Source: Escherichia coli
GTDB taxonomy: Bacteria; Pseudomonadota; Gammaproteobacteria; Enterobacterales; Enterobacteriaceae
Strand: one strand, 5' to 3'
DNA length: 64,000 nt
Assembly (NCBI RefSeq): GCF_029227855.1
Contig: NZ_CP074356.1
The notes under the pieces are model-generated. The model saw only the letters and a program-made list of their open reading frames with translations. It made no database searches and was not told where the DNA came from. This document shows, piece after piece, positions 1 to 56,393 of this stretch. Position numbers and translations under genes: made by a program. Numbering within the stretch: position 1 is the first letter of the stretch; every line of letters starts with the position of its first letter.

Positions 1-1
1 C

Positions 2-2974
2 GCTGCGGACCGGATCATCCGCTGGTCCGATAACGACCAGACGTGGAGCCGTTTCACCTACGATGAACAGGGCCGGTGCGTGAATGTCACCGGGGCGGAG
101 GGCTATTACAACGCCACGCTGGACTATGGTGACGGCTGCACCACCGTGACGGACGGCAAGGGCATTCACCGTTATTACTATGATCCTGACGGCAATATTC
201 TGCGGGAAGCAGCGCCGGACGGCAGCACCACCACGTATGAATGGGATGAATTCCATCACCTGCTGGCCCGTCACTCCCCTGCCGGGCGGGTGGAGAAATT
301 TGAATACAACGCCGCACACGGTCAGTTAAGCCGTTACACGGCGGCAGACGGCGCGGAGTGGCAGTACCGCTATGATGAGCGCGGCCTGCTCAGCAACATC
401 ACCGACCCTGCCGGGCAGACGTGGACACAGCAGTGTGATGAACGCGGCCTGCCGGTAAGTCTGGTGTCGCCACAGGGCGAAGAGACCCGGCTGGCATACA
501 CCGCTCAGGGGCTGCTGTCGGGAATATTCCGCCAGGATGAACGGCGTCTGGGCATAGAGTACGACCACCACAACCGGCCGGAAACACTCACCGACGTGAT
601 GGGCCGTGAACACCACACCGAATACAGCGGTCACGACCTGCCGGTGAAGATGCGCGGCCCCGGCGGTCAGTCAGTGCGGTTGCAGTGGCAGCAGCACCAT
701 AAACTGAGTGGCCTTGAGCGCACTGGCACCGGCGCGGAAGGGTTCAGCTATGACCGCCACGGCAACCTGCTGGCCTGGACGGACGGCAATGGTGTTGTCT
801 GGACAATGGAGTACGGCCCGTTCGATTTGCCGGTGGCGCGAACGGACGGTGAAGGCCACCGCTGGCAGTACCGCTATGATAAAGACACGCTGCAACTGAC
901 AGAAGTCATTAACCCGCAGGGTGAGTCATATCTTTATGTTCTGGATAACTGCGGCCGGGTGACGGAAGAGCATGACTGGGGCGGCGTGGTCTGGCGTTAC
1001 CGCTATGACGCCGATGGCCTGTGTACCGCCAGGGTCAACGGCCTGGAGGAAACCATCCTCTACAGCCGGGACGACGCAGGCCGCCTGGCAGAAGTCATCA
1101 CGCCGGAAGGCAAAACGCAGTATGCGTATGACAAATCCGGCAGGCTGACGGGTATCTTCAGCCCGGACGGCACATCACAGCGCACCGGCTATGACGAACG
1201 CGGGCGGGTGAATGTCACCACTCAGGGCCGACGGGCCATTGAATACCACTACCCCGATGAACACACCGTCATCCGCTGTATCCTGCCACCGGAAGATGAA
1301 CGCGACAGACACCCCGGTGAATCCCTGCTGAAAACCACGTACCGCTACAACGCAGCCGGAGAACTGGCAGAGGTCATCCTGCCGGAGGATGAGACGCTGA
1401 CGTTCAGCCGTGATGAGGCAGGACGTGAAGTGCTCCGGCACAGTAACCGGGGTTTTGCCTGTGAGCAGGGCTGGAATGCAGCCGGTCAGCTTACCAGCCA
1501 GCGCGCCGGACTTTTCCCGGCAGAAGCCACATGGGGCGGGCTGCTCCCCTCACTGGTACGGGAGTACCGTTACGACAGCGCGGGCAATGTGTCGGCTGTC
1601 ACCAGCCGGGAAGATTACGGACGGGAAACTCGCCGGGAGTACCGGCTGGACCGGAACGGCCAGGTCACGGCGGTGACAGCCTCAGGCACCGGGCTGGGCT
1701 ATGGCGAAGGCGATGAGTCCTATGGCTATGACAGTTGTGGCTACCTGAAGGCGCAGTCTGCGGGCAGGCACCGGATAAGTGAAGAGACTGAGCGGTATGC
1801 CGGAGGCCACCGGCTGAAACAGGCCGGAAACACGCAGTATGACTATGACGCCGCAGGCCGGATGGTCAGCCGCACCAGACACCGTAACGGCTATCGCCCG
1901 GAAACAGAGCGGTTCCGGTGGGACAGCCGGGACCAGCTGACCGGGTATTGCAGCGCACAGGGTGAACAGTGGGAATACCGCCACGACGCCAGCGGCAGAC
2001 GGACGGAAAAACGCTGCGACCGGAAGAAAATCCGCTTCACGTACCTGTGGGACGGCGACAGTATTGCGGAAATCCGGGAATACCGCGATGATAAACTGTA
2101 CAGCGTAAGGCACCTGGTGTTTAACGGCTTTGAGCTGATAAGCCAGCAGTTTAGCCGGGTACGGCAGCCGCACCCGTCCGTGGCCCCGCAGTGGGTGACG
2201 CGGACGAATCATGCGGTGAGCGATCTGACGGGCCGTCCGCTGATGCTCTTTAACAGTGAAGGTAAAACCGTCTGGCGACCGGGACAGACCAGCCTGTGGG
2301 GGCTGGCACTCAGCCTGCCCGCGGACACCGGCTACCCGGACCCGCGCGGGGAACTGGACGCGGAAGCCGACCCCGGCCTGCTGTATGCAGGACAGTGGCA
2401 GGATGCGGAATCCGGGCTGTGCTATAACCGGTTCCGGTATTACGAGCCGGAAACAGGGATGTACCTGGTGAGTGATCCGCTGGGGTTGCTGGGGGGTGAG
2501 CAGACTTACCGGTATGTGCCGAATCCGTGTGGGTATGTTGATCCTTTGGGATTAGCAACATGTCCCATAATCAGACAACGGGTGCTGGCTAACCTTGAAG
2601 CCAGTCGGGCAGCAAGGGCTGCATCTAATTTTGGTAAGAAAAATATCTATGATTTTATCAAGGCAACTCAATCTGCTATCCCTGGCACCTCTATCCCAAA
2701 ATCTTTTGAGATTATAACTGCTAATGGTACTTTCTGGGTACACCCAAATGCTACAAAACATATGGCTGAATATTTGACTCGGAACGGTCTCTCACATTCA
2801 ACTTCTGTAGAGAGCCAAATAATGTTAACAAGTTTTCACGAAGCTGTAAGTTTGGCTAGTGCTCAAGGTATAAAGTATGAAGAAATGATGAATGTTGGCG
2901 GCTGGGAACTAGTATTTAGTCAAGCTAAATCTGACTCGGCTTTATCAGTTATTAAACATGCTCTTTATAAATGA
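2..2974 (+). CDS. Rhs-family polymorphic toxin, 5'-truncated by the window edge; YD-repeat core ending in a DPLGL motif, then a ~140-aa C-terminal toxin domain of unassigned family
   Basis: The reading frame is open from position 2 to the stop at 2974. Repeated YDxxGR(L/V) motifs run throughout, and the core ends with RYYEPETGMYLVSDPLGL...YVDPLGL followed by a lower-GC extension (ATCPIIRQ...KHALYK). Confidence 0.85.
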   Translation, partial: AADRIIRWSDNDQTWSRFTYDEQGRCVNVTGAEGYYNATLDYGDGCTTVTDGKGIHRYYYDPDGNILREAAPDGSTTTYEWDEFHHLLARHSPAGRVEKFEYNAAHGQLSRYTAADGAEWQYRYDERGLLSNITDPAGQTWTQQCDERGLPVSLVSPQGEETRLAYTAQGLLSGIFRQDERRLGIEYDHHNRPETLTDVMGREHHTEYSGHDLPVKMRGPGGQSVRLQWQQHHKLSGLERTGTGAEGFSYDRHGNLLAWTDGNGVVWTMEYGPFDLPVARTDGEGHRWQYRYDKDTLQLTEVINPQGESYLYVLDNCGRVTEEHDWGGVVWRYRYDADGLCTARVNGLEETILYSRDDAGRLAEVITPEGKTQYAYDKSGRLTGIFSPDGTSQRTGYDERGRVNVTTQGRRAIEYHYPDEHTVIRCILPPEDERDRHPGESLLKTTYRYNAAGELAEVILPEDETLTFSRDEAGREVLRHSNRGFACEQGWNAAGQLTSQRAGLFPAEATWGGLLPSLVREYRYDSAGNVSAVTSREDYGRETRREYRLDRNGQVTAVTASGTGLGYGEGDESYGYDSCGYLKAQSAGRHRISEETERYAGGHRLKQAGNTQYDYDAAGRMVSRTRHRNGYRPETERFRWDSRDQLTGYCSAQGEQWEYRHDASGRRTEKRCDRKKIRFTYLWDGDSIAEIREYRDDKLYSVRHLVFNGFELISQQFSRVRQPHPSVAPQWVTRTNHAVSDLTGRPLMLFNSEGKTVWRPGQTSLWGLALSLPADTGYPDPRGELDAEADPGLLYAGQWQDAESGLCYNRFRYYEPETGMYLVSDPLGLLGGEQTYRYVPNPCGYVDPLGLATCPIIRQRVLANLEASRAARAASNFGKKNIYDFIKATQSAIPGTSIPKSFEIITANGTFWVHPNATKHMAEYLTRNGLSHSTSVESQIMLTSFHEAVSLASAQGIKYEEMMNVGGWELVFSQAKSDSALSVIKHALYK

Positions 2975-4427: not shown

Positions 4428-5289
4428 AGTTGGATTGGATAATTATCTGTTTCAAAAATCATTAAATTTAGAACCTATCTGTTCAACAGAGCTGCCTTGA
4501 ACAGCAGGTTCTTTTATGATGTCCAGGAGCGAATATGCCTGTGATGTCTGGCACTCAGCATCTGACTGACCTGGACTACTGATCCTACTCACACAGGGAG
4601 CTAGACCTGGAAGCAACCTACTGTAAGCAGTGCAGTAGCAGCCCACCTCACATCAGTCCTTGCAAGGTGTGGGCCTTTGTGATCTTGCTCTGTATTGCTG
4701 AGATCCTCAGGAAGGACTCGAAATTTAATCAGGAAGGCCGTTGCTAAAAATCAAAAAATAAATTCAAGAGCAATTTCTAAAACTTTTGAATCTACTGTAT
4801 CGGATGAGGTTTTCACTCCTTTCCAAAAGGTGAGTTTTCAAGCATTCAAGTTTCTGTTATGACCAAAACTTCACCATTTAACACTAATCCGAGTATTATG
4901 TTACCATGAAGAAAAAAGATATTAGATTTGCAATATCCATTAACTCCAACTCAAGTAAGATAGAATTAATGGAAAAATTAAAAACATAATCCCAGGGCTT
5001 ATTGAAATAACTCCCAGTGCATTAAGAGAAGAAAAAACATGGTAGTTATTGAAGATAATGATCTTTATGACTCTATAAAAGCAGAGGGAGTTGATGGATG
5101 GATGTATTATAAATTCATATTATCCATATTCCCATTAAAGGGAGTAGACACAACATTAGAATATCAACGGAAATTATCTTTTCTTTTCTTAAAGAAATTA
5201 AAAGATGCGGGTCTGTTAGGTGAACTTATATGCGAGGATGATTTTCATGACTGATGACCTCTACATATATCCTCAGTTCGTGGCTGGTA

Positions 5290-5631
5290 TTACATGATCT
5301 GACAGGGAAAGATCGTAGCGAAATCAAAAAAGACGTGGATTTCCCGGAAGCCGGTGAAGACACGGCGCTCTGCGACAAGGAGACTAAACCGCCGAGGATA
5401 GCCCAGGGCAGCAGCAACGTTTTTATCAACAATCAGCCTGCCGCACGCCAGGGAGACAAACTGGAGTGCAGTGCGGCGATCGTGGAAGGTTCGCCGGACG
5501 TCTTTATTGGGGGTGAGCAGGTCACCTATCTGGATATCCAGCCGGAGTTCCCGCCGTGGCAGAGAATGATCCTGGGGGGAATAACGATAGCCAGCTATCT
5601 TCTGCCGCCAGCGCAGGGAAAGATCACGTAA
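5290..5631 (+). pseudogene. PAAR-domain fragment, probably the C-terminal part of the N-terminal PAAR region of a T6SS-type Rhs or PAAR protein
   Basis: A GC-rich segment inside the 5254..5631 ORF encodes IAQGSSNVFINNQPAARQGDKLECSAAIVEGSPDVFIGG, matching the PAAR motif pattern. The composition shifts abruptly near 5290, and no credible N-terminus or Rhs core follows. Confidence 0.5.
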
Positions 5632-5700
5632 CGCTGCTTTTTTGTACTAAATAATTCGCACTAAATGTTCAATAATTGAGATATTCCTTATTACCTAAAT
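5614..5700 (+). repeat. Direct repeat copy 1 (~90 bp; cagggaaagatca...tttgtactaaataattcgca...gatattcc.tattacctaaa)
   Basis: About 80% identical by eye to 7645..7738. It lies at the 3' junction of the PAAR fragment. Confidence 0.6.
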
Positions 5701-5750
5701 ACAGTTCCACCAAGATTACCTAAACCCAAATGAGGTAAAAGATAGTGGGT

Positions 5751-6112
5751 ATGAATAAAAATGAAATCCATTTCCCTATAGGATATGGTTGGTTGAATGA
5801 AAAAAAATTATTGGCACCAGTGAATTTAGCCAATTAGAACCATGGTTTTATCTAGATGAGAACAGGTGTTTTTTTGCGAATAAAAAATGGCCAAATGTCA
5901 TAGGTGAACAATTATTCGCTTTTGCTAAACGTCAAGATAATGATGAATTGGCTTGTTTCAAAATTAATGAATCTGGAGTCTGTGAGGGTGTTTATTTAAT
6001 TAATGGGTGGACTCCTAACGGGTTTGATATTATACAATTTTACCCTGATTTTTGGGAATGGGTACATTTGGTTATACAAGATGTCTCGGAGTGGATTGAT
6101 AATAAAGGATAA
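5751..6112 (+). pseudogene. Frameshifted immunity-like gene; any family resemblance (e.g. SMI1/KNR4-like) is tentative
   Basis: ATG at 5751 gives MNKNEIHFPIGYGWLNEKKLLAPVNLAN then a stop. The +1 frame continues KKIIGTSEFSQLEPWFYLDENRCFF...EWIDNKG to 6112. The frame break coincides with an A8 homopolymer near 5803-5810. Confidence 0.35.
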
Positions 6113-6141: not shown

Positions 6142-6840
6142 TTGAAGGTAACGTGGAGTGGTGGGCGGAGCAGCCTGCCCGCAGACACAGACTACCCGGA
6201 CCCGCGCGGGGAGCGGGACGCGGAAGCCGACCCCGGCCTGCTGTATGCAGGACAGTGGCAGGATGCGGAATCCGGACTGTGCTATAACCGGTTCCGGTAT
6301 TACGAGCCGGAAACCGGGATGTACCTGGTGAGTGATCCCCTGGGGTTGCTGGGGGGTGAGCAGACTTACCGGTATGTGCCTAATCCTAGTGGGTATGTTG
6401 ATCCTCTGGGATTAGCAACGTGTCCTATACTCAGACAGTGGGCGCTGACTAACCTTGAAGCCAGTCGGGCAGCAAGGGCTGCATCTAATTTTGGTAAGCC
6501 TCTGGTCCAGCGAAATAAAACGATTGGCGATAAAGTAAGGGATATGATTGCCAAAGAGAGGGGAACCACTCTAATTGAACAAAATTATAGAGTGACAGGA
6601 GGATTAAAGCGTATTGACGTTGTTGATGGAGTAACGGGTATAGAATCTAAAGTCGATCGAACAGGGTTAACAACCCGAGTACGGCAAGAGGTAGCGCGGG
6701 ATATTAAGATTTTGAGAAGTGAGCAACTTGATCAAATTGAATGGGTGTTTACAAGAAGTTCAACTACAGGGAAGATTGGGCCAACTAAACCACTTGAAGA
6801 TCTTTTAAATAAACATGGTATACCGATTATTTATCGATAA
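6142..6840 (+). CDS. Orphan Rhs C-terminal module: core-end repeat (DPLGL) plus an alternative toxin domain, possibly a PD-(D/E)xK-like nuclease
   Basis: Positions ~6176-6500 are near-identical to 2310-2630 (the end of the first Rhs core plus 26 codons). The sequences then diverge into a different C-terminal domain containing RIDVVDGVTGIESKVDRTG. The reported ATG at 6142 is probably not the native start. Confidence 0.7.
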   Translation: MKVTWSGGRSSLPADTDYPDPRGERDAEADPGLLYAGQWQDAESGLCYNRFRYYEPETGMYLVSDPLGLLGGEQTYRYVPNPSGYVDPLGLATCPILRQWALTNLEASRAARAASNFGKPLVQRNKTIGDKVRDMIAKERGTTLIEQNYRVTGGLKRIDVVDGVTGIESKVDRTGLTTRVRQEVARDIKILRSEQLDQIEWVFTRSSTTGKIGPTKPLEDLLNKHGIPIIYR

Positions 6841-6851
6841 GGAGTGATAGT

Positions 6852-7409
6852 GTGAAACTCAAACCGATTGGTGACTTTTTAAACAAAAATGGGTTTATAA
6901 AAAATGGTAACAATGATTTTTATAAAGTTCATGATAAGTTTGTAAATTGTATAAATTTTCAAAAAAAGAGTACAGGTGATATTTTTTTTATAAACACAGG
7001 TGTTCATCCTGTGTTCGAAAATTTTTGCAATGAACCACCGAAAAAAGAAATAGATTGTTACATCCGTAACCGTGTGTGTGATGGACTAAGTATATCTTTG
7101 CTGCATTCTTTTGAAGGTAGTGAGTTTGTTATCAGTGAGATAAAAAACAAAGCGTTTTGTTTTTTTGAATACTTTGATTCATTGAATAAAATATTCGATG
7201 CTATTCGTGTTGTAGATATTGAAGAGAGAAATATTTGCGATGAGCTAAGTGGTGTAAGCAGCGTAAGATTAGCTTTGATGTGTATGAACTACCAGTATGA
7301 GAAAAAAAAATTTAGCCTTGTTTCTGATTTTGCGAACTATGGTCTTGCTATATCTAGAGGCCCGGTACCGAAAAAAGCATTTAAGGATATGATAAAAATA
7401 ACAGAGTGA
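6852..7409 (+). CDS. Putative immunity protein for the orphan Rhs toxin module
   Basis: A 185-aa ORF with a GTG start 12 bp after the toxin stop, preceded by AGGAG at 6841-6845. AT-rich. Confidence 0.5.
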   Translation: MKLKPIGDFLNKNGFIKNGNNDFYKVHDKFVNCINFQKKSTGDIFFINTGVHPVFENFCNEPPKKEIDCYIRNRVCDGLSISLLHSFEGSEFVISEIKNKAFCFFEYFDSLNKIFDAIRVVDIEERNICDELSGVSSVRLALMCMNYQYEKKKFSLVSDFANYGLAISRGPVPKKAFKDMIKITE

Positions 7410-7419
7410 TACCTAATCC

Positions 7420-7650
7420 GGTGTAATACTTGCTGCCTGTGTACCGCGAAGATTAACGGCCGGGAGGAAACTATTCTCTACAACCGGGACGCCACAGGCC
7501 GCCTGGCAGAAGTCATCACGCCGGAAGGCAAAACGCAGTATGCGTATGACAAATCCGGCAGGCTGACGGGTATCTTCAGCCCGGACGACACATCACAGCG
7601 CACCGGCTATGAAGAACGCGGGCGGGTGAATGTCACCACTCAGGGCAGGG
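7420..7650 (+). pseudogene. Internal Rhs core fragment
   Basis: About 215 bp nearly identical to 1021-1230 of the first Rhs core (encoding ...EETILY..RLAEVITPEGKTQYAYDKSGRLTGIFSPD...). Homology is lost at the cagggaaagatca junction. Confidence 0.6.
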
Positions 7651-7738
7651 AAAGATCATCCAAAGTACACTTTTTGTACTAAATAATTCGCATTTTATGT
7701 TTAAAAATGGAGATATTCCTCATTACCTAAAGCTGTTT
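7645..7738 (+). repeat. Direct repeat copy 2 (~90 bp), immediately upstream of the ISAs1-family transposase
   Basis: Matches 5614..5700 in sequence. It may be the left end of the H-repeat element or a recombination scar. Confidence 0.6.
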
Positions 7739-7739
7739 T

Positions 7740-8940
7740 TTATTGCTTATACATGATCAAATACTCCTTACATAATTAAGGAGAACAAAATGGAACTTAA
7801 AAAATTGATGGAACATATTTCTATTATCCCCGATTACAGACAAGCCTGGAAAGTGGAACATAAATTATCGGATATTCTGCTGTTGACTATTTGTGCCGTT
7901 ATTTCGGGTGCAGAAGGCTGGGAAGATATAGAGGATTTTGGGGAAACACATCTCGATTTTTTGAAGCAATATGGTGATTTTGATAATGGTATTCCTGTTC
8001 ACGATACCATCGCCAGAGTTATATCCTGTATCAGTCCTTCAAAATTTCACGAGTGTTTTATTAACTGGATGCGAGATTGCCATACTTCAGATGATAAAGA
8101 CGTCATCGCAATTGATGGAAAAACACTCCGGCATTCTTATGACAAGAGTCGCCGCAAGGGAGCGATTCATGTCATTAGTGCGTTCTCAACAATGCACAGT
8201 CTGGTCATCGGACAGATCAGGACGGATGAGAAATCCAATGAAATTACAGCTATCCCTGAACTTCTTAACATGCTGGATATTAAAGGAAAAATCATCACAA
8301 CTGATGCGATGGGTTGCCAGAAAGATATTGCAGAGAAGATACAAAAACAGGGCGGTGATTATTTATTCGCTGTAAAAGGAAACCAGGGGCGGCTAAATAA
8401 AGCCTTCGAGGAAAAATTTCCGCTGAAAGAATTAAATAATCCAGAGCATGACAGTTACGCCATTAGTGAAAAGAGTCACGGCAGAGAAGAAATCCGTCTT
8501 CATATTGTTTGCGATGTCCCTGATGAACTTATTGATTTCACGTTTGAATGGAAAGGACTGAAGAAATTATGCGTGGCAGTCTCTTTTCGGTCAATAATAG
8601 CAGAACAAAAGAAAGAGCCAGAAATGACGGTCAGATATTATATCAGTTCTGCTGATTTAACCGCAGAGAAGTTCGCCACAGCAATCCGAAACCACTGGCG
8701 CGTGGAGAATAAGCTGCACTGGCGTCTGGACGTGGTAATGAATGAAGACGACTGCAAAATAAGAAGAGGAAACGCCGCAGAATTATTTTCAGGGATACGG
8801 CACATCGCTATTAATATTTTAACGAATGATAAGGTATTCAAGGCAGGGTTAAGACGTAAGATGCGAAAAGCAGCCATGGACAGAAACTATCTCGCGTCAG
8901 TCCTTGCGGGGAGCGGGCTTTCGTAATCTTGCCCTGCGTT
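7740..8940 (+). mobile_element. ISAs1-family (H-repeat) insertion element; boundaries approximate
   Basis: Contains one intact transposase ORF. The terminal inverted repeats could not be delimited by eye. Confidence 0.4.
7790..8926 (+). CDS. ISAs1-family transposase (H-repeat-associated protein; YhhI/YdcC/YbfD-like)
   Basis: A 378-aa ORF ([32 protein letters not shown]...[31 protein letters not shown]) recognised as the H-repeat protein family found inside Rhs elements. Confidence 0.85.
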
Positions 8941-51709: not shown

Positions 51710-52201
51710 TTACTCTGCACAAGCATCAGGCAATCCAGCTCCAATATTTGTTATAAAATAATGCGTAACATTAATTTCACCAACAAAAAAAAGGTTTACG
51801 CTATCCCCTTGCCCTGGTATTTTACCATATTTACACCACACTTTTTTTGTATCTGGATCATTCTCTGATACGATTTTCGCCACTTGTTCCCTGGCCCTCA
51901 CCGTCAATGTTTTCTTAAACCTCCCCCCATCATCGATTGTTAGGGAAAAATAAGAAAAAAAATAATCACCTTCTACATTTGTGGATATTGATATATCCAC
52001 CGCTACATGCGGAAAAAAATCTGGGAGCCATGTAAAAACCCCATCACTTTCTGGTATTGCCATATAGTTTATGTAATGCTTACTTACAAGAGATTCATCT
52101 TTGTGTAAATAAAGATAAGTAGTCACGCATAAAAAAACAACGATTATAATAGCAAAAATAAATATTACCATCTTTGAGATGTTACTTGAGATAGCCAGCA
52201 T
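51710..52201 (-). CDS. Putative immunity protein for the rhsD-locus Rhs toxin, with an N-terminal transmembrane helix
   Basis: An AT-rich ORF of 153-163 aa directly downstream of the Rhs stop, overlapping it or separated by ~10 bp depending on the start. Hydrophobic segment [21 protein letters not shown]. Confidence 0.55.
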
Positions 52202-55200
52202 CTTGTAAAGCCTTTATCGTTTTTTTATGCTCTGGATTAATATAATCAATACATCTATTTGAGCAATCTTGTGTTAATGGACATGTCAACCCATGTTCAT
52301 TTACAGCCAAGTCTTTTTTATTATCTTCAATCATCTCAGAATGGGATAACTTTACTTTTCTGCCGTACATACCGAACATATTTAACCCGTAATCTCTAAT
52401 CTCTTTTTCATAACCCAGCCCTTTCGCTGATCGGCTAACACCAGCGTCATTTAATTTAGACACTCGACAAAATGCCATACAATGGAAAAATTGATCAGTC
52501 CCACCTAAATTTAATCTCTTCATATCATCATAAGTATCAGATAATATATCCCATGCTCTTTGATGGTTTAGTTGTTCTTTTTTTCGCATTAACGCTACAT
52601 CTGCAGGACTTAACCCTAATGGATCAATACCATTCACCGGATTCAGCGGATACGCATACAGACTCCATCCCCCCGCCAGCCCAATCGGGTCCTGAGCAAT
52701 ATATCGTCCCAGCAACGGATTGTAGTACCGGTTCCGGTTATAATACAGCCCTGACTCCTCATCGTGTTGCTGCCCTGGCAGACGGTACGGCTGGTGCAGG
52801 TGATGCGGGTTTTCCTCATTCAGCAGGTTTCCCCACTCATCATACTCCCCGCTCCACGCCGTATTGCCGTCTTCGCTGATGAGCGCCAGCGGCAGCCCCC
52901 GGTGGTCACAGTGATAAAGATGAATTTTTCGCTCAGGTAAATAAACCGGCTCTATCTGTGCCGCCAGCCGCTCCACCGTCAGCCCGCACTGTGCCAGCCA
53001 CTGGCGGCTTTCACTGCTCACGCGGTCTGCCCGGATTTCCCCCTCCAGCCTGTCCAGCAGCCGCACCAGTTCAGCCGGGAACACCACGCCGTGTCCGTCC
53101 TCGCTCCCTTCCTGCTGGAGCTTCTCCGCCAGGCTGCGGCGCTGCGCTTTCTCCCGCTCGCCGTTCTCTGTCTCGACCCGGATGAGCGGCGTGAAGCTTC
53201 CCGGCTGGTACACCGTCTGGATACGCGTGGTGTCGGTCTGTACTGTCGCCAGCCTGTCGCCGTCCCACCCGTACCACGTTACCTCCGGTTTACGCGACAG
53301 CGACATCCACCCCGTCAGGTCACGCTCCCGCCGCCATACCCGTTTCGCCATTCGCCATCCCAGCGGGTCGTAGAGGTAGCGGCTCTCGACCAGTGGCTCG
53401 CCATGCTGTATCCGCGTGTAGAACACCAGGCGGTGCTGGCTGTCGTAGTGGTAGTGGTGGGTCCGCTCGTCGTCCGTCCGTATCACACCCGCCGGGATGC
53501 GGTCCGTCTTCTCTGTCAGCCTGCCGTATTCATCGTGGCGGTAGACATAGTGCGCATCCTCCGCGATGCGGTTATCCGGCCACGCCGTGAGTGTACTGTC
53601 CGGGTGCAGCTCCGGGTCCGGCAGCCGGTTGCCCGCCGGGTCCGTGGCATACGGGATGCGGATGTCCAGGTCCGGTGCGAGGGTGCGTACACTCGCCAGC
53701 CTGCCCGTGGCACTGTAGCCGTATTCCCGCGTCTGTCGCGGGCCGCTGATGCGCACAAGGTCGCCGTTGTCATTCCACCCGTAGTCACGGTCATACACCA
53801 GGCTGTTCAGGTGCTGGCTCTGTAACTGGCCTGCAGGGGTGTATGTGCTGGTCAGTTCGTATGCGGCATTACTGCCTGCCATGCTGCCAAAGCTGCGCAC
53901 CGTTTCTCTGTGCAGGCGGTCGCGCGCGTACTCCAGCAGCGGCGTGTCGCCCAGCTTCATGCCCGCCAGATAACCGCTACCGTAGGTCAGCCACTCCACC
54001 GGCGGCAGGCTGTCCGGCGTGACGCGGTTTGCCAGCCCCTGTTCGTTGTATGCCTGTTTCGTCTCATGCTGCCACAGCAGTTCCCCCGTCTCCGGGTTCT
54101 TCACCGTCTGGTGCTCACTGGTCAGACGGCCTTTATCGTCATAGCCGTAGTGGACCGCCACACGGTGGCCTTCGCTCAGGTGGCTGATTTCTCTCAGCCA
54201 GCCGTGGCCATCATACTGCCACTGCTCTGCCGGTTCGCCGTTCACCGTGCGGTGAGTGAGGCGGTCCGATTCGTCGTAGTGCCAGAGGGTGACAAGCCCC
54301 TCATCTTCACTCTGCGTGAGTTTTCCGGTCAGGTCATAATGATAACGTTGCGTCCGCCCGTCAAAGCCGCTCTGCTGTACCAGCCGGTCCAGTGCGTCGT
54401 AACGGAAGGCGCTGTCACTGCCGTTCTCGTTGGTCAGCGTGGCGACACGTCCTGCCGCGTCATACTCCATACTGCGCGTCAGCCCGCCCTGCGTGGTGCT
54501 GACCGCTTTTCCCCACGCATCGTACTGTGTCTCGCTCCGGTTGCCGCCCGGGGTGATAACGGCAGTCAGGTCGCCTGCGGCGTTGTACTCATACTGCGTT
54601 TCACGGCCCTGTGCGTCTTTCACCGAGGTTAACCGGCCACGGTTGTCATAGTGGCGGTAAAGGCTGATGCCTTCCTCGCGGTGGACCGCCGTCATCTGGC
54701 CGAAGCGGTCATACTCATAGCGGGTCTGGTAGCCCGAGCAGTCGGTGAACGCCAGCAACTGACCGTAGCGGCTCCAGGTCATCTGCCGGGTGCTGCCCGT
54801 CGCATCTGTTGTCGTGGCCGGTAATTCACTGTGCGGATTATCATAAGCATACCGGATGACGTCCCCACTGCGCGATGTCTCCGATACCAGCCTGTCCCGC
54901 TCATCATACGCCCGGCGGCTCTCCAGCCCGTCCGGGTACACCACCGCCGTCACCAGGTTCCCGTCGTTATAGTAAAATTTCGTCTCCCGCCCGTCCGGCG
55001 TGGTGATGTCCGTGATGTCGCCTGACACCACATTCAGACCGTACTCTGTCCGCCGTCCCGCCGCGTCCGTCTGCGCCGTAAGCCGCCCCACCGGGTCATA
55101 CCCGCTGCGCGTGACGCTGCCGTCCGCCAGTTCTTTTTTCACCACCCGCTTCAGCCCGGCCCCGCCTTCTGTATGCAGCACCTCACGCCGGTTCAGGCTG

Positions 55201-56393
55201 TCCGTGACGGTGATGCGGTCCTGCTCATACTGGTAGCGGTAACTCAGGCCTGCCGGGTTCAGCTGCTCCACCACCCGCCCCGCATCGTCGTAGCGGTAGC
55301 GCATCTCCGGCCTTCCCGCGTAACGGTGCGCCACCATCCGGCCCGGGTGCTGCGCGTCATACGTGAAAGCGCGCACCTGCGTATTGCTGCGGTCATATAC
55401 CGCCAGCAGTTCACCGGCTTCCGTATACGTGTACCGCACCAGTGGCGCACCGGGCAGGCTCTCCGGGTATGCCGGGTCGTGCATCAGCCACACCGCCGAA
55501 AGACGGATGCCCCTGTCGGGGCCGTATTCGGTACCGGGCAGTGTGTCGGGGAACGCTGAGGCTGAAAGAGGGCGGGGGGTGTCAGGGGAAAATAAGGAAG
55601 CGGTGTGCTGTTTACGGGCCTCTTCCGCCCGCTGCGCCTGCGTGGTCAGCACCAGACGGAACTCCCGCCCGGCACCGTCCGTCACGCCGGTGATTTCCCC
55701 GGCCAGGTCACCGGCGGCCTCACGCCGGTACGTCAGCGTCTGCCCGAAGCGGTCCGCCAGCCCGGTAAGCACCCGGTACGGCGGCAGCGGCGCTGGCAGT
55801 ACGTCCTCAGTGCCCGGCACCCGCTCTGACCACCCCAGTATCCACCACGGTCCCTGTGCGCTGTTGGTCGCCAGGTAAAGATGCGGGCTTAACCGGATAT
55901 CCGGCGGCAGCGACGCCCACAGCCGTGCCAGCGTGTGGCCGTCCGGCTGCGCTGCCTTACCACCGCGAACCAGCCACATTGACTCGCTGCGGCTGTACAC
56001 CGCCCCCCCCGGCAGCAGCGGCTCAAAGTGAATGCTCCGTCCGCCGTTGTCGTTGAGTACCAGTGCATCATCGCGTATCTGTAAGCGGATATCAGAAGGC
56101 GCTTTCCAGCCGGGGCCAAAAATCCCCACCGGCGCAGGCGTCTTCGTCCGGTAGCTGCTGTAGGTGCGGGAGAGAATGAACGGCAGCGGGCCGGGCAGCG
56201 CAAGGTCCGTCTCGCCGGGCAGCACCTTCGCCCCCAGCAGCGGATTTACCGGGTTGCCCGAAGTCATCCTGCCCGGACACACCGAGCACGCCACGCCGGT
56301 GGGCGCGCCAATTCTTACACCTGCCGAACCCTGGACAATGGGACCGCCATACTGAGTCATATCTCCCTGACGCGCCGCTGGTTTTCCGCTCAT
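52182..56393 (-). CDS. Full-length Rhs polymorphic toxin at the K-12 rhsD position, with a Cys/His-rich C-terminal toxin domain of unassigned family
   Basis: 1403 aa with a PAAR-like N-terminus [33 protein letters not shown], extensive YD repeats, a DPIGL...DPLGL core end, then a ~145-aa tail with a compositional drop. It lies next to ybbP, as rhsD does in K-12. Confidence 0.9.

What the first reader, a model, noticed from the sequence alone, without database searches (positions are those of the whole stretch)
5751..6112. Immunity-like gene interrupted at an A8 homopolymer
The reading frame shifts exactly at a run of eight adenines, producing a 28-codon N-terminus followed by ~100 codons in the +1 frame. 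Homopolymer tracts of this kind can be slipped-strand hotspots, or the frameshift could be a sequencing error.
Basis: seen in the sequence. Interest (0 to 1): 0.3.

Follow-up and report, generated by a model that had tools for sequence, protein, structure and literature searches.

The report
Frameshifted orphan Rhs immunity gene
A small E. coli gene that once protected the cell from a neighbouring toxin has lost one adenine from a run of nine, so it is now an ordinary broken gene whose partner toxin had already been deleted.

Summary
An ORF starts at ATG 5751, meets A8 at 5800-5807 and stops at 5835-5837 after 28 codons. A second frame is open from 5801 to the TAA at 6110-6112 (103 codons). 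That frame is displaced by -1 (+2), not +1. One extra A (A9) gives a 120-aa protein identical to RefSeq WP_001038643.1.

Of 5426 complete E. coli genomes, 110 carry the locus: 108 have A9 with an intact annotated gene, and 2 have A8.

The window is nearly identical to one A8 genome, JNEC-KY178 (3 SNPs and no indels in 44 kb). The tract is its only indel against an A9 relative over 16 kb. The A8 is therefore most likely a real, inherited 1-nt deletion, though reads could not be checked. A7 alleles elsewhere come from assemblies with widespread homopolymer compression. A10 alleles look real.

The gene belongs to a small, Pfam-less family with a SUKH (SMI1/KNR4)-like predicted fold. In two other organisms it sits directly after an Rhs C-terminal toxin tip with a predicted ParB/sulfiredoxin fold. 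Here only the last 10 codons of that toxin survive (5701-5733), next to an ISAs1 end remnant.

Verdict: an ordinary pseudogene in an rhs orphan-module array. Interest is low.

The parts
5751..6112 (+). Whole frameshifted orphan immunity gene. With A9 it would encode the 120-aa protein WP_001038643.1. An alternative GTG start at 5745 gives the 122-aa form.
   Evidence: (intact CDS in CP007393).
5751..5837 (+). 5' segment in the zero frame: 28 codons, then TAG 5835-5837. Only the first 19 codons match the family.
5800..5807 (+). A8 tract, the site of the 1-nt deletion relative to A9 in orthologues. In the zero frame it reads GA-A AAA AAA, an in-phase A_AAA_AAA heptamer.
5801..6112 (+). 3' segment in the -1 frame: 103 codons plus TAA. 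It carries the conserved core FAFAKRQDNDELACF...GW...FW.W...D..EW.
5701..5733 (+). Relic of the cognate toxin gene. It encodes TVPPRLPKPK*, identical to the last 10 residues of the Rhs-CT toxin that precedes the homologue in L011. The 17-nt spacer to the immunity ATG is the same.
5614..5699 (+). Truncated ISAs1 (H-repeat) left-end-like sequence, about 88% identical to 7646-7731. It marks the breakpoint that removed the toxin gene.
5314..5613 (+). PAAR-domain fragment, 94% identical to part of the 5' region of the main rhs gene. It is not the partner toxin of this gene.
1..2974 (+). 3' part of the main rhs gene of the vgrG-DcrB-rhs cluster, which heads the orphan-module array.
6171..6840 (+). 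The next orphan module: an Rhs core-end and C-terminal toxin fragment.
6852..7409 (+). DUF4304 immunity gene of the next orphan module. It is intact and contains T8 and A9 runs.
7790..8926 (+). ISAs1-family transposase that closes the rhs array before nfrB/nfrA.

Best explanation
The gene is an orphan immunity gene of an Rhs polymorphic-toxin module. It encodes a 120-aa cytoplasmic protein with a SUKH (SMI1/KNR4)-like fold. By inference, this protein would bind and neutralise one specific Rhs C-terminal toxin tip with a ParB/sulfiredoxin-like fold. In this E. coli lineage the module sits in the orphan array downstream of vgrG-DcrB-rhs. The toxin gene has been deleted down to its last 10 codons at an ISAs1-end breakpoint. 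The ancestral state of the gene carries an A9 run (GAA AAA AAA ATT). In the window's small clade one A was lost, most likely by replication strand slippage. Translation now ends after 28 codons, and the conserved 100-residue core is out of frame with no usable internal start. The result is an ordinary, recently formed pseudogene of a gene that no longer has a partner toxin in the genome. Shown here: the frame break, A9 in orthologues, the toxin relic, homologue contexts and fold similarity. Inferred: the slippage mechanism, that the call is genuine, and the toxin-neutralising function.
Against: No reads were available, so a shared systematic under-call of A9 in two related assemblies cannot be excluded. 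The second apparent A8 occurrence (CP007394) is unreliable, because that assembly differs from its sister by dozens of homopolymer indels. The immunity function rests on gene context and fold only. No Pfam model reaches threshold, Foldseek against the PDB found nothing, and profile searches found no sequence link to SUKH proteins. The family is tiny (14 clusters), and only two contexts show an adjacent toxin.
Confidence: 0.7

Rival explanations
1. Sequencing or assembly artefact. The strain really has A9 and an intact gene, and the consensus under-called one A in the homopolymer.
For: Homopolymer under-calls at exactly this tract exist in public assemblies. Four genomes with A7 also compress other runs. 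CP007394 (A8) differs from CP007393 only by single-base homopolymer indels. 108 of 110 complete genomes have A9.
Against: The window has no other indel against an A9 relative over 16.2 kb. Its other A9 and T8 runs are intact. A separately deposited genome from Japan shares A8 and has 0 indels over 44 kb. PGAP flags no frameshifted CDS in that 50-kb stretch.
Confidence: 0.2
2. A functional switch or recoding site. Either the A-run acts as a phase-variable contingency tract turning immunity ON (A9) or OFF (A8/A10), or the A8 allele is still expressed through -1 ribosomal frameshifting or RNA-polymerase slippage on A_AAA_AAA. Either route would recreate exactly the wild-type protein.
For: The heptamer A_AAA_AAA is in phase, and a -1 shift gives ...NEKKIIGTSEF..., identical to the A9 product. 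Length variants A8, A9 and A10 exist in apparently clean sequences. The 73%-identical homologue also carries an in-frame A8 run. In E. coli, AAA-AAA supports -1 frameshifting (PMC1851650), and long A runs support transcriptional slippage (PMC1088944).
Against: Out-of-frame alleles are rare: 2 of 110 complete genomes, and a handful of contigs against more than 1000 intact ones. More distant homologues have no A-run. There is no stimulatory downstream structure (z = -0.38) and no upstream SD-like element. E. coli RNAP needs more than 7 As for detectable slippage and inserted at only about 0.4% on an A7 run (PMC6260861), so any rescue would be minor. With no partner toxin there is nothing obvious to regulate.
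Confidence: 0.07
3. The gene is not an immunity gene but an unrelated small protein that happens to lie in the rhs array, so its loss says nothing about toxin defence.
For: There is no significant Pfam, PDB-sequence or HH match to any immunity family. Two distant homologues (L008, L009) lie beside a transposase fragment rather than a toxin.
Confidence: 0.08

Closest known systems
SUKH (SMI1/KNR4) superfamily immunity proteins of polymorphic toxin systems (PMC3113570, PMC3482391), for example RhsPI in PDB 8bd1 and YobK in 2prv
   Different: No Pfam SUKH model reaches threshold; the best E-value is 0.023, in 3 of 15 members. Profile searches gave no hit and Foldseek gave no hit. At 120 aa it is shorter than typical SUKH proteins. 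The family is very small (14 clusters).
Orphan toxin/immunity modules downstream of rhs genes in Enterobacteriaceae, formed by C-terminal displacement (named from my own knowledge, not from a paper read here); orphan immunity genes as acquired defence (PMC12247911 was listed in the search but not read)
   Same: Lies in an AT-rich cassette array after a vgrG-chaperone-rhs cluster, flanked by rhs fragments and an ISAs1/H-repeat element.
   Different: Typical orphans keep an rhs core-end fragment plus the toxin tip. Here the toxin is deleted to its last 10 codons, and the immunity gene itself is now frameshifted.
Homopolymer slippage frameshifts, both mutational and transcriptional (PMC1088944; the Citrobacter tssM poly-A case in PMC4256274 is known here from its title and abstract only)
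   Same: A single-base length change in a 9-A run inside a coding region. The site is an in-phase slippery heptamer, so some read-through is conceivable.
   Different: The frameshifted arrangement is not conserved, there are no stimulators, and out-of-frame alleles are rare. It looks like a sporadic mutation rather than a mechanism the cell uses.

Membership tests
SUKH / SMI1-KNR4 immunity superfamily | Sequence match to a Pfam SUKH model (SMI1_KNR4, SUKH_5, SUKH_6 and relatives) above the gathering score | tested here: not met
   no hit for the repaired protein; only 3 of 15 family members touch PF09346, best E 0.023; no profile hit to PDB sequences or to a neighbouring SUKH_5 protein.
SUKH / SMI1-KNR4 immunity superfamily | SUKH alpha+beta fold | tested here: met
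   [not shown]
SUKH / SMI1-KNR4 immunity superfamily | Gene lies immediately downstream of a polymorphic-toxin C-terminal domain or in a poly-immunity array | tested here: met
   L007: 2 nt after an Rhs tip. L011: 17 nt after a homologous tip. L005/L006: array with SUKH_5, DUF4284 and Macro genes beside T6SS genes. The window keeps the toxin's last 10 codons.
SUKH / SMI1-KNR4 immunity superfamily | Binds and neutralises its cognate toxin | not testable with these tools
   Needs co-expression or binding experiments.
rhs orphan toxin/immunity module | Located distal to a full-length rhs gene in the same orientation, as a low-GC cassette | tested here: met
   vgrG-DcrB-rhs lies upstream. GC is 0.33, against 0.59 for the rhs core.
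rhs orphan toxin/immunity module | Retains an rhs core-end fragment with a toxin tip in front of the immunity gene | tested here: not met
   Only 33 nt of the toxin's 3' end remain. Upstream are an ISAs1-end remnant and an unrelated PAAR fragment. tblastn of the toxins against the window hits only rhs core ends.
Phase-variable contingency locus (slipped-strand mispairing) | ON and OFF tract lengths both common among close relatives | tested here: not met
   108 A9 against 2 A8 in complete genomes. The intact protein is on over 1000 contigs, against a handful with A10.
Phase-variable contingency locus (slipped-strand mispairing) | Tract conserved across homologues | tested here: not met
   Only the 73%-identical homologue has an A8 run, and it is in frame. 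More distant homologues have none.
Programmed -1 ribosomal frameshift site | In-phase X_XXY_YYZ slippery heptamer | tested here: met
   The zero frame reads GA-A AAA AAA TTA.
Programmed -1 ribosomal frameshift site | Downstream stimulatory structure, and a two-frame arrangement conserved in orthologues | tested here: not met
   Fold of 5808-5880: -12.3 kcal/mol, z = -0.38. Orthologues are single-frame A9.

The most novel reading that the evidence does not exclude
The A8 allele is not fully dead. A_AAA_AAA is in phase, and a -1 shift (or insertion of one A by RNA polymerase) recreates exactly the wild-type 120-aa protein. A few percent of full-length immunity protein could therefore still be made. 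The run would then act as a heritable dimmer (A9 full, A8/A10 low) for an orphan immunity gene kept as defence against ParB-fold Rhs toxins from other species.
Probability: 0.08. Interest if true: 0.35.

Novelty: new member of a known kind. Interest (0 to 1): 0.12.

Why it matters
It matters little on its own. This is one more decaying cassette in an rhs orphan array, produced by the commonest kind of frameshift. There are three modest by-products. First, the 'hypothetical protein' WP_001038643.1 can be annotated as a SUKH-like immunity protein. Its partner is an un-annotated Rhs toxin tip with a predicted ParB/sulfiredoxin fold, and neither has a Pfam model. Second, the locus shows how an immunity gene can outlive its toxin through an ISAs1-linked deletion and then start to decay. 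Third, the tract is a handy local quality indicator. A7 calls and the 104-aa 'MKKIIG...' RefSeq protein arise from homopolymer compression in noisy assemblies.

Tried and rejected
1. I first took CP007394 to be the window's source because of a 100% match over 501 bp. That was wrong: it differs from the window by 85 SNPs in 13 kb.

2. I considered CP007394 against CP007393 as evidence that A8 arose twice independently. I rejected this because the two 'ST2747' assemblies differ by dozens of 1-nt homopolymer indels.

3. Pfam scans of the repaired protein and of all family members gave nothing above threshold. Pfam and PDB-sequence searches of the toxin tip also gave nothing.

5. A profile search of the family against PDB sequences, and hhalign against a neighbouring SUKH_5 protein, gave no link.

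6. Exact look-ups of the truncated A8 products (28, 30 and 54 aa) in the protein collection found nothing, so short-read assemblies carrying A8 could not be found this way.

7. A metagenome scan across tract lengths 6-12 returned only two contigs, both A9.

8. No frameshift-stimulating structure lies downstream of the tract. The promoter and terminator scan was no better than shuffled sequence.

9. A search for the cognate toxin's DNA in E. coli complete genomes gave no match.

Full report
**1. The observation**

- An ORF begins at ATG 5751. An upstream GTG at 5745, with GAGG at 5732-5735, is an alternative start.
- The ORF runs into A8 at 5800-5807 and stops at TAG 5835-5837 after 28 codons.
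- A second frame is open from 5801, directly after TGA 5798-5800, to TAA 6110-6112. That is 103 codons.
- 5751 is 0 mod 3 and 5801 is 2 mod 3.
- Adding one A (A9) fuses the two parts into a 120-aa ORF.
- In the A8 state the first possible start in the downstream frame is TTG 5948. No near-full-length product can start internally.

**2. Orthologues**

- 110 of 5426 complete E. coli genomes carry this locus, always once and always on the chromosome.
- Searches with 68/69-nt probes carrying A8 or A9 give an exact count of 108 A9 and 2 A8.
- In A9 genomes the gene is annotated as an intact 'hypothetical protein', WP_001038643.1.
- The intact protein occurs on more than 1000 contigs in the large protein collection.
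- Two metagenome contigs also have A9.
- A9 is therefore the ancestral, functional state, and the window carries a 1-nt deletion allele.

**3. Real mutation or error?**

Reads were not available, so I used assembly-level controls.
- The window is not CP007394, despite a 100% match over 501 bp. The two differ by 85 SNPs in 13 kb.
- The window is nearly identical to JNEC-KY178 (Japan). There are 3 SNPs and no indels in 44,166 bp, both have A8, and no CDS in that stretch is flagged as frameshifted.
- Against the A9 genome CP007393, the tract is the only indel in 16,248 bp. The other long runs nearby, T8 at 6982 and A9 at 7302, are unchanged.
- Four genomes with A7 give a 104-aa 'MKKIIG...' protein. 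They also compress many other runs, including that second A9. These are artefacts.
- CP007394 (A8) differs from its sister CP007393 by dozens of 1-nt homopolymer indels and almost no SNPs. Its A8 is not trustworthy.
- Three sequences with A10, two of them metagenome scaffolds, have the tract as their only indel. Genuine length polymorphism at this run probably exists.

I put about 0.7-0.75 on a real, inherited A9-to-A8 deletion in the window's clade, and about 0.2 on a shared under-call.

**4. What the gene is**

- The family is small, with 14 clusters at E of 0.001 or better, but it is well conserved. Its motifs are P9, Y12 and W14, then L-PW-YL, FAFAKRQDNDELACF, GW, FW-W and D--EW.
- No Pfam model reaches threshold.
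- An AlphaFold model built from the alignment is confident, with pLDDT 91.5.
- Foldseek against the PDB found nothing.
- Context agrees with an immunity role. In Segetibacter (L007) the homologue starts 2 nt after an Rhs protein that ends with the DPIGL...VWGL motif and a roughly 130-aa tip. In metagenome contig L011 a 73%-identical homologue starts 17 nt after a tip that is 54-69% identical to the Segetibacter one.
- In L005/L006 the homologue sits in an array with SUKH_5, DUF4284, DUF5958 and Macro genes, next to T6SS membrane-complex genes.
- The toxin tip has no Pfam or PDB sequence match.
- ParB-fold toxin domains on Rhs and other polymorphic toxins are described in PMC3482391.

**5. Local history**

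- The gene lies in the orphan array downstream of vgrG-DcrB-rhs and upstream of an ISAs1 element and nfrBA.
- Its GC content is 0.33, against 0.59 for the rhs core.
- The ORF just upstream (5254-5631) is a PAAR fragment. It is 94% identical to part of the main rhs gene and is not a toxin tip.
- Between them, 5614-5699 parallels the left end of the ISAs1 element at 7646-7731.
- 5701-5733 still encodes TVPPRLPKPK*, identical to the last ten residues of the L011 toxin. The same 17-nt spacer precedes the immunity ATG.
- The toxin gene was therefore removed at an ISAs1-associated breakpoint, leaving a toxin-less immunity gene.
- No complete E. coli genome has DNA resembling that toxin tip.

**6. 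Mechanism and rivals**

The best-supported reading is replication slippage on the A9 run of an orphan immunity gene under weak or no selection. This gives a plain pseudogene.

A switch or recoding role is unlikely.
- Out-of-frame alleles are rare.
- The run is absent from more distant homologues.
- There is no stimulatory structure downstream.
- The zero frame does present an in-phase A_AAA_AAA heptamer, and a -1 shift would regenerate exactly the wild-type sequence.
- E. coli can frameshift on AAA-AAA (PMC1851650) and slip transcriptionally on long A runs (PMC1088944). However, its RNAP needs more than 7 As for detectable slippage and inserts at well under 1% on A7 (PMC6260861).
- Low-level leakiness is therefore possible but untested.

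**7. Verdict**

- The feature is ordinary: a frameshifted, toxin-less orphan Rhs immunity gene.
- The only mildly new items are the assignment of this unannotated family to a SUKH-like fold and its pairing with an unannotated ParB-fold Rhs toxin tip.
- Interest is 0.12.

Noticed in passing
window 5701-5733: The last 10 codons (TVPPRLPKPK*) of a deleted Rhs toxin gene survive. They are identical to the C-terminus of the toxin that precedes the homologue in metagenome contig L011, with the same 17-nt spacer to the immunity start.
   Followed up: yes
window 5614-5699 and 7646-7731: Two copies of the ISAs1 (H-repeat) left-end sequence, about 88% identical. The first is truncated and fused to the toxin tail. 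Each abuts an rhs-derived fragment (the PAAR fragment 5314-5613, and the rhs fragment 7435-7646) at a shared CAGGGAAAGATCA junction.
   Followed up: partly
[not shown]
   Followed up: partly
window 51710-56393 (minus strand): A second, complete rhs gene (1403 aa, 52182-56393) with an intact 163-aa downstream ORF (51710-52201). That ORF contains two 8-nt homopolymers (51785, 51955) with no frame break. There is also a C8 run at 56003 inside the rhs gene.
   Followed up: no
NZ_CP007392-CP007394 (loci L001, L002, L022, L023): The three 'strain ST2747' complete assemblies differ from each other by dozens of single-base homopolymer indels and almost no SNPs. This produces several 'frameshifted' annotations, including the main rhs gene in CP007394. 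These look like assembly noise.
   Followed up: yes
L012-L015 (GCA_045618685.1, CP163883.1, CP164475.1, CP164789.1): A7 alleles yield a 104-aa 'MKKIIGTSEF...' protein that has its own RefSeq accession (WP_407230567.1). These assemblies show general homopolymer compression, so the protein is probably an artefact.
   Followed up: yes
L016-L018: A10 alleles (105-aa 'MKKKIIG...' calls) occur in one draft genome and two metagenome scaffolds, with no other indel. This is probably genuine +1 slippage at the same run.
   Followed up: partly
L010:853-1284 and L011:974-1405 (minus strand): In the metagenome contigs the toxin/immunity pair is followed by a convergent SymE-toxin-family gene. In E. coli, SymE is an SOS-induced toxin.
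   Followed up: no
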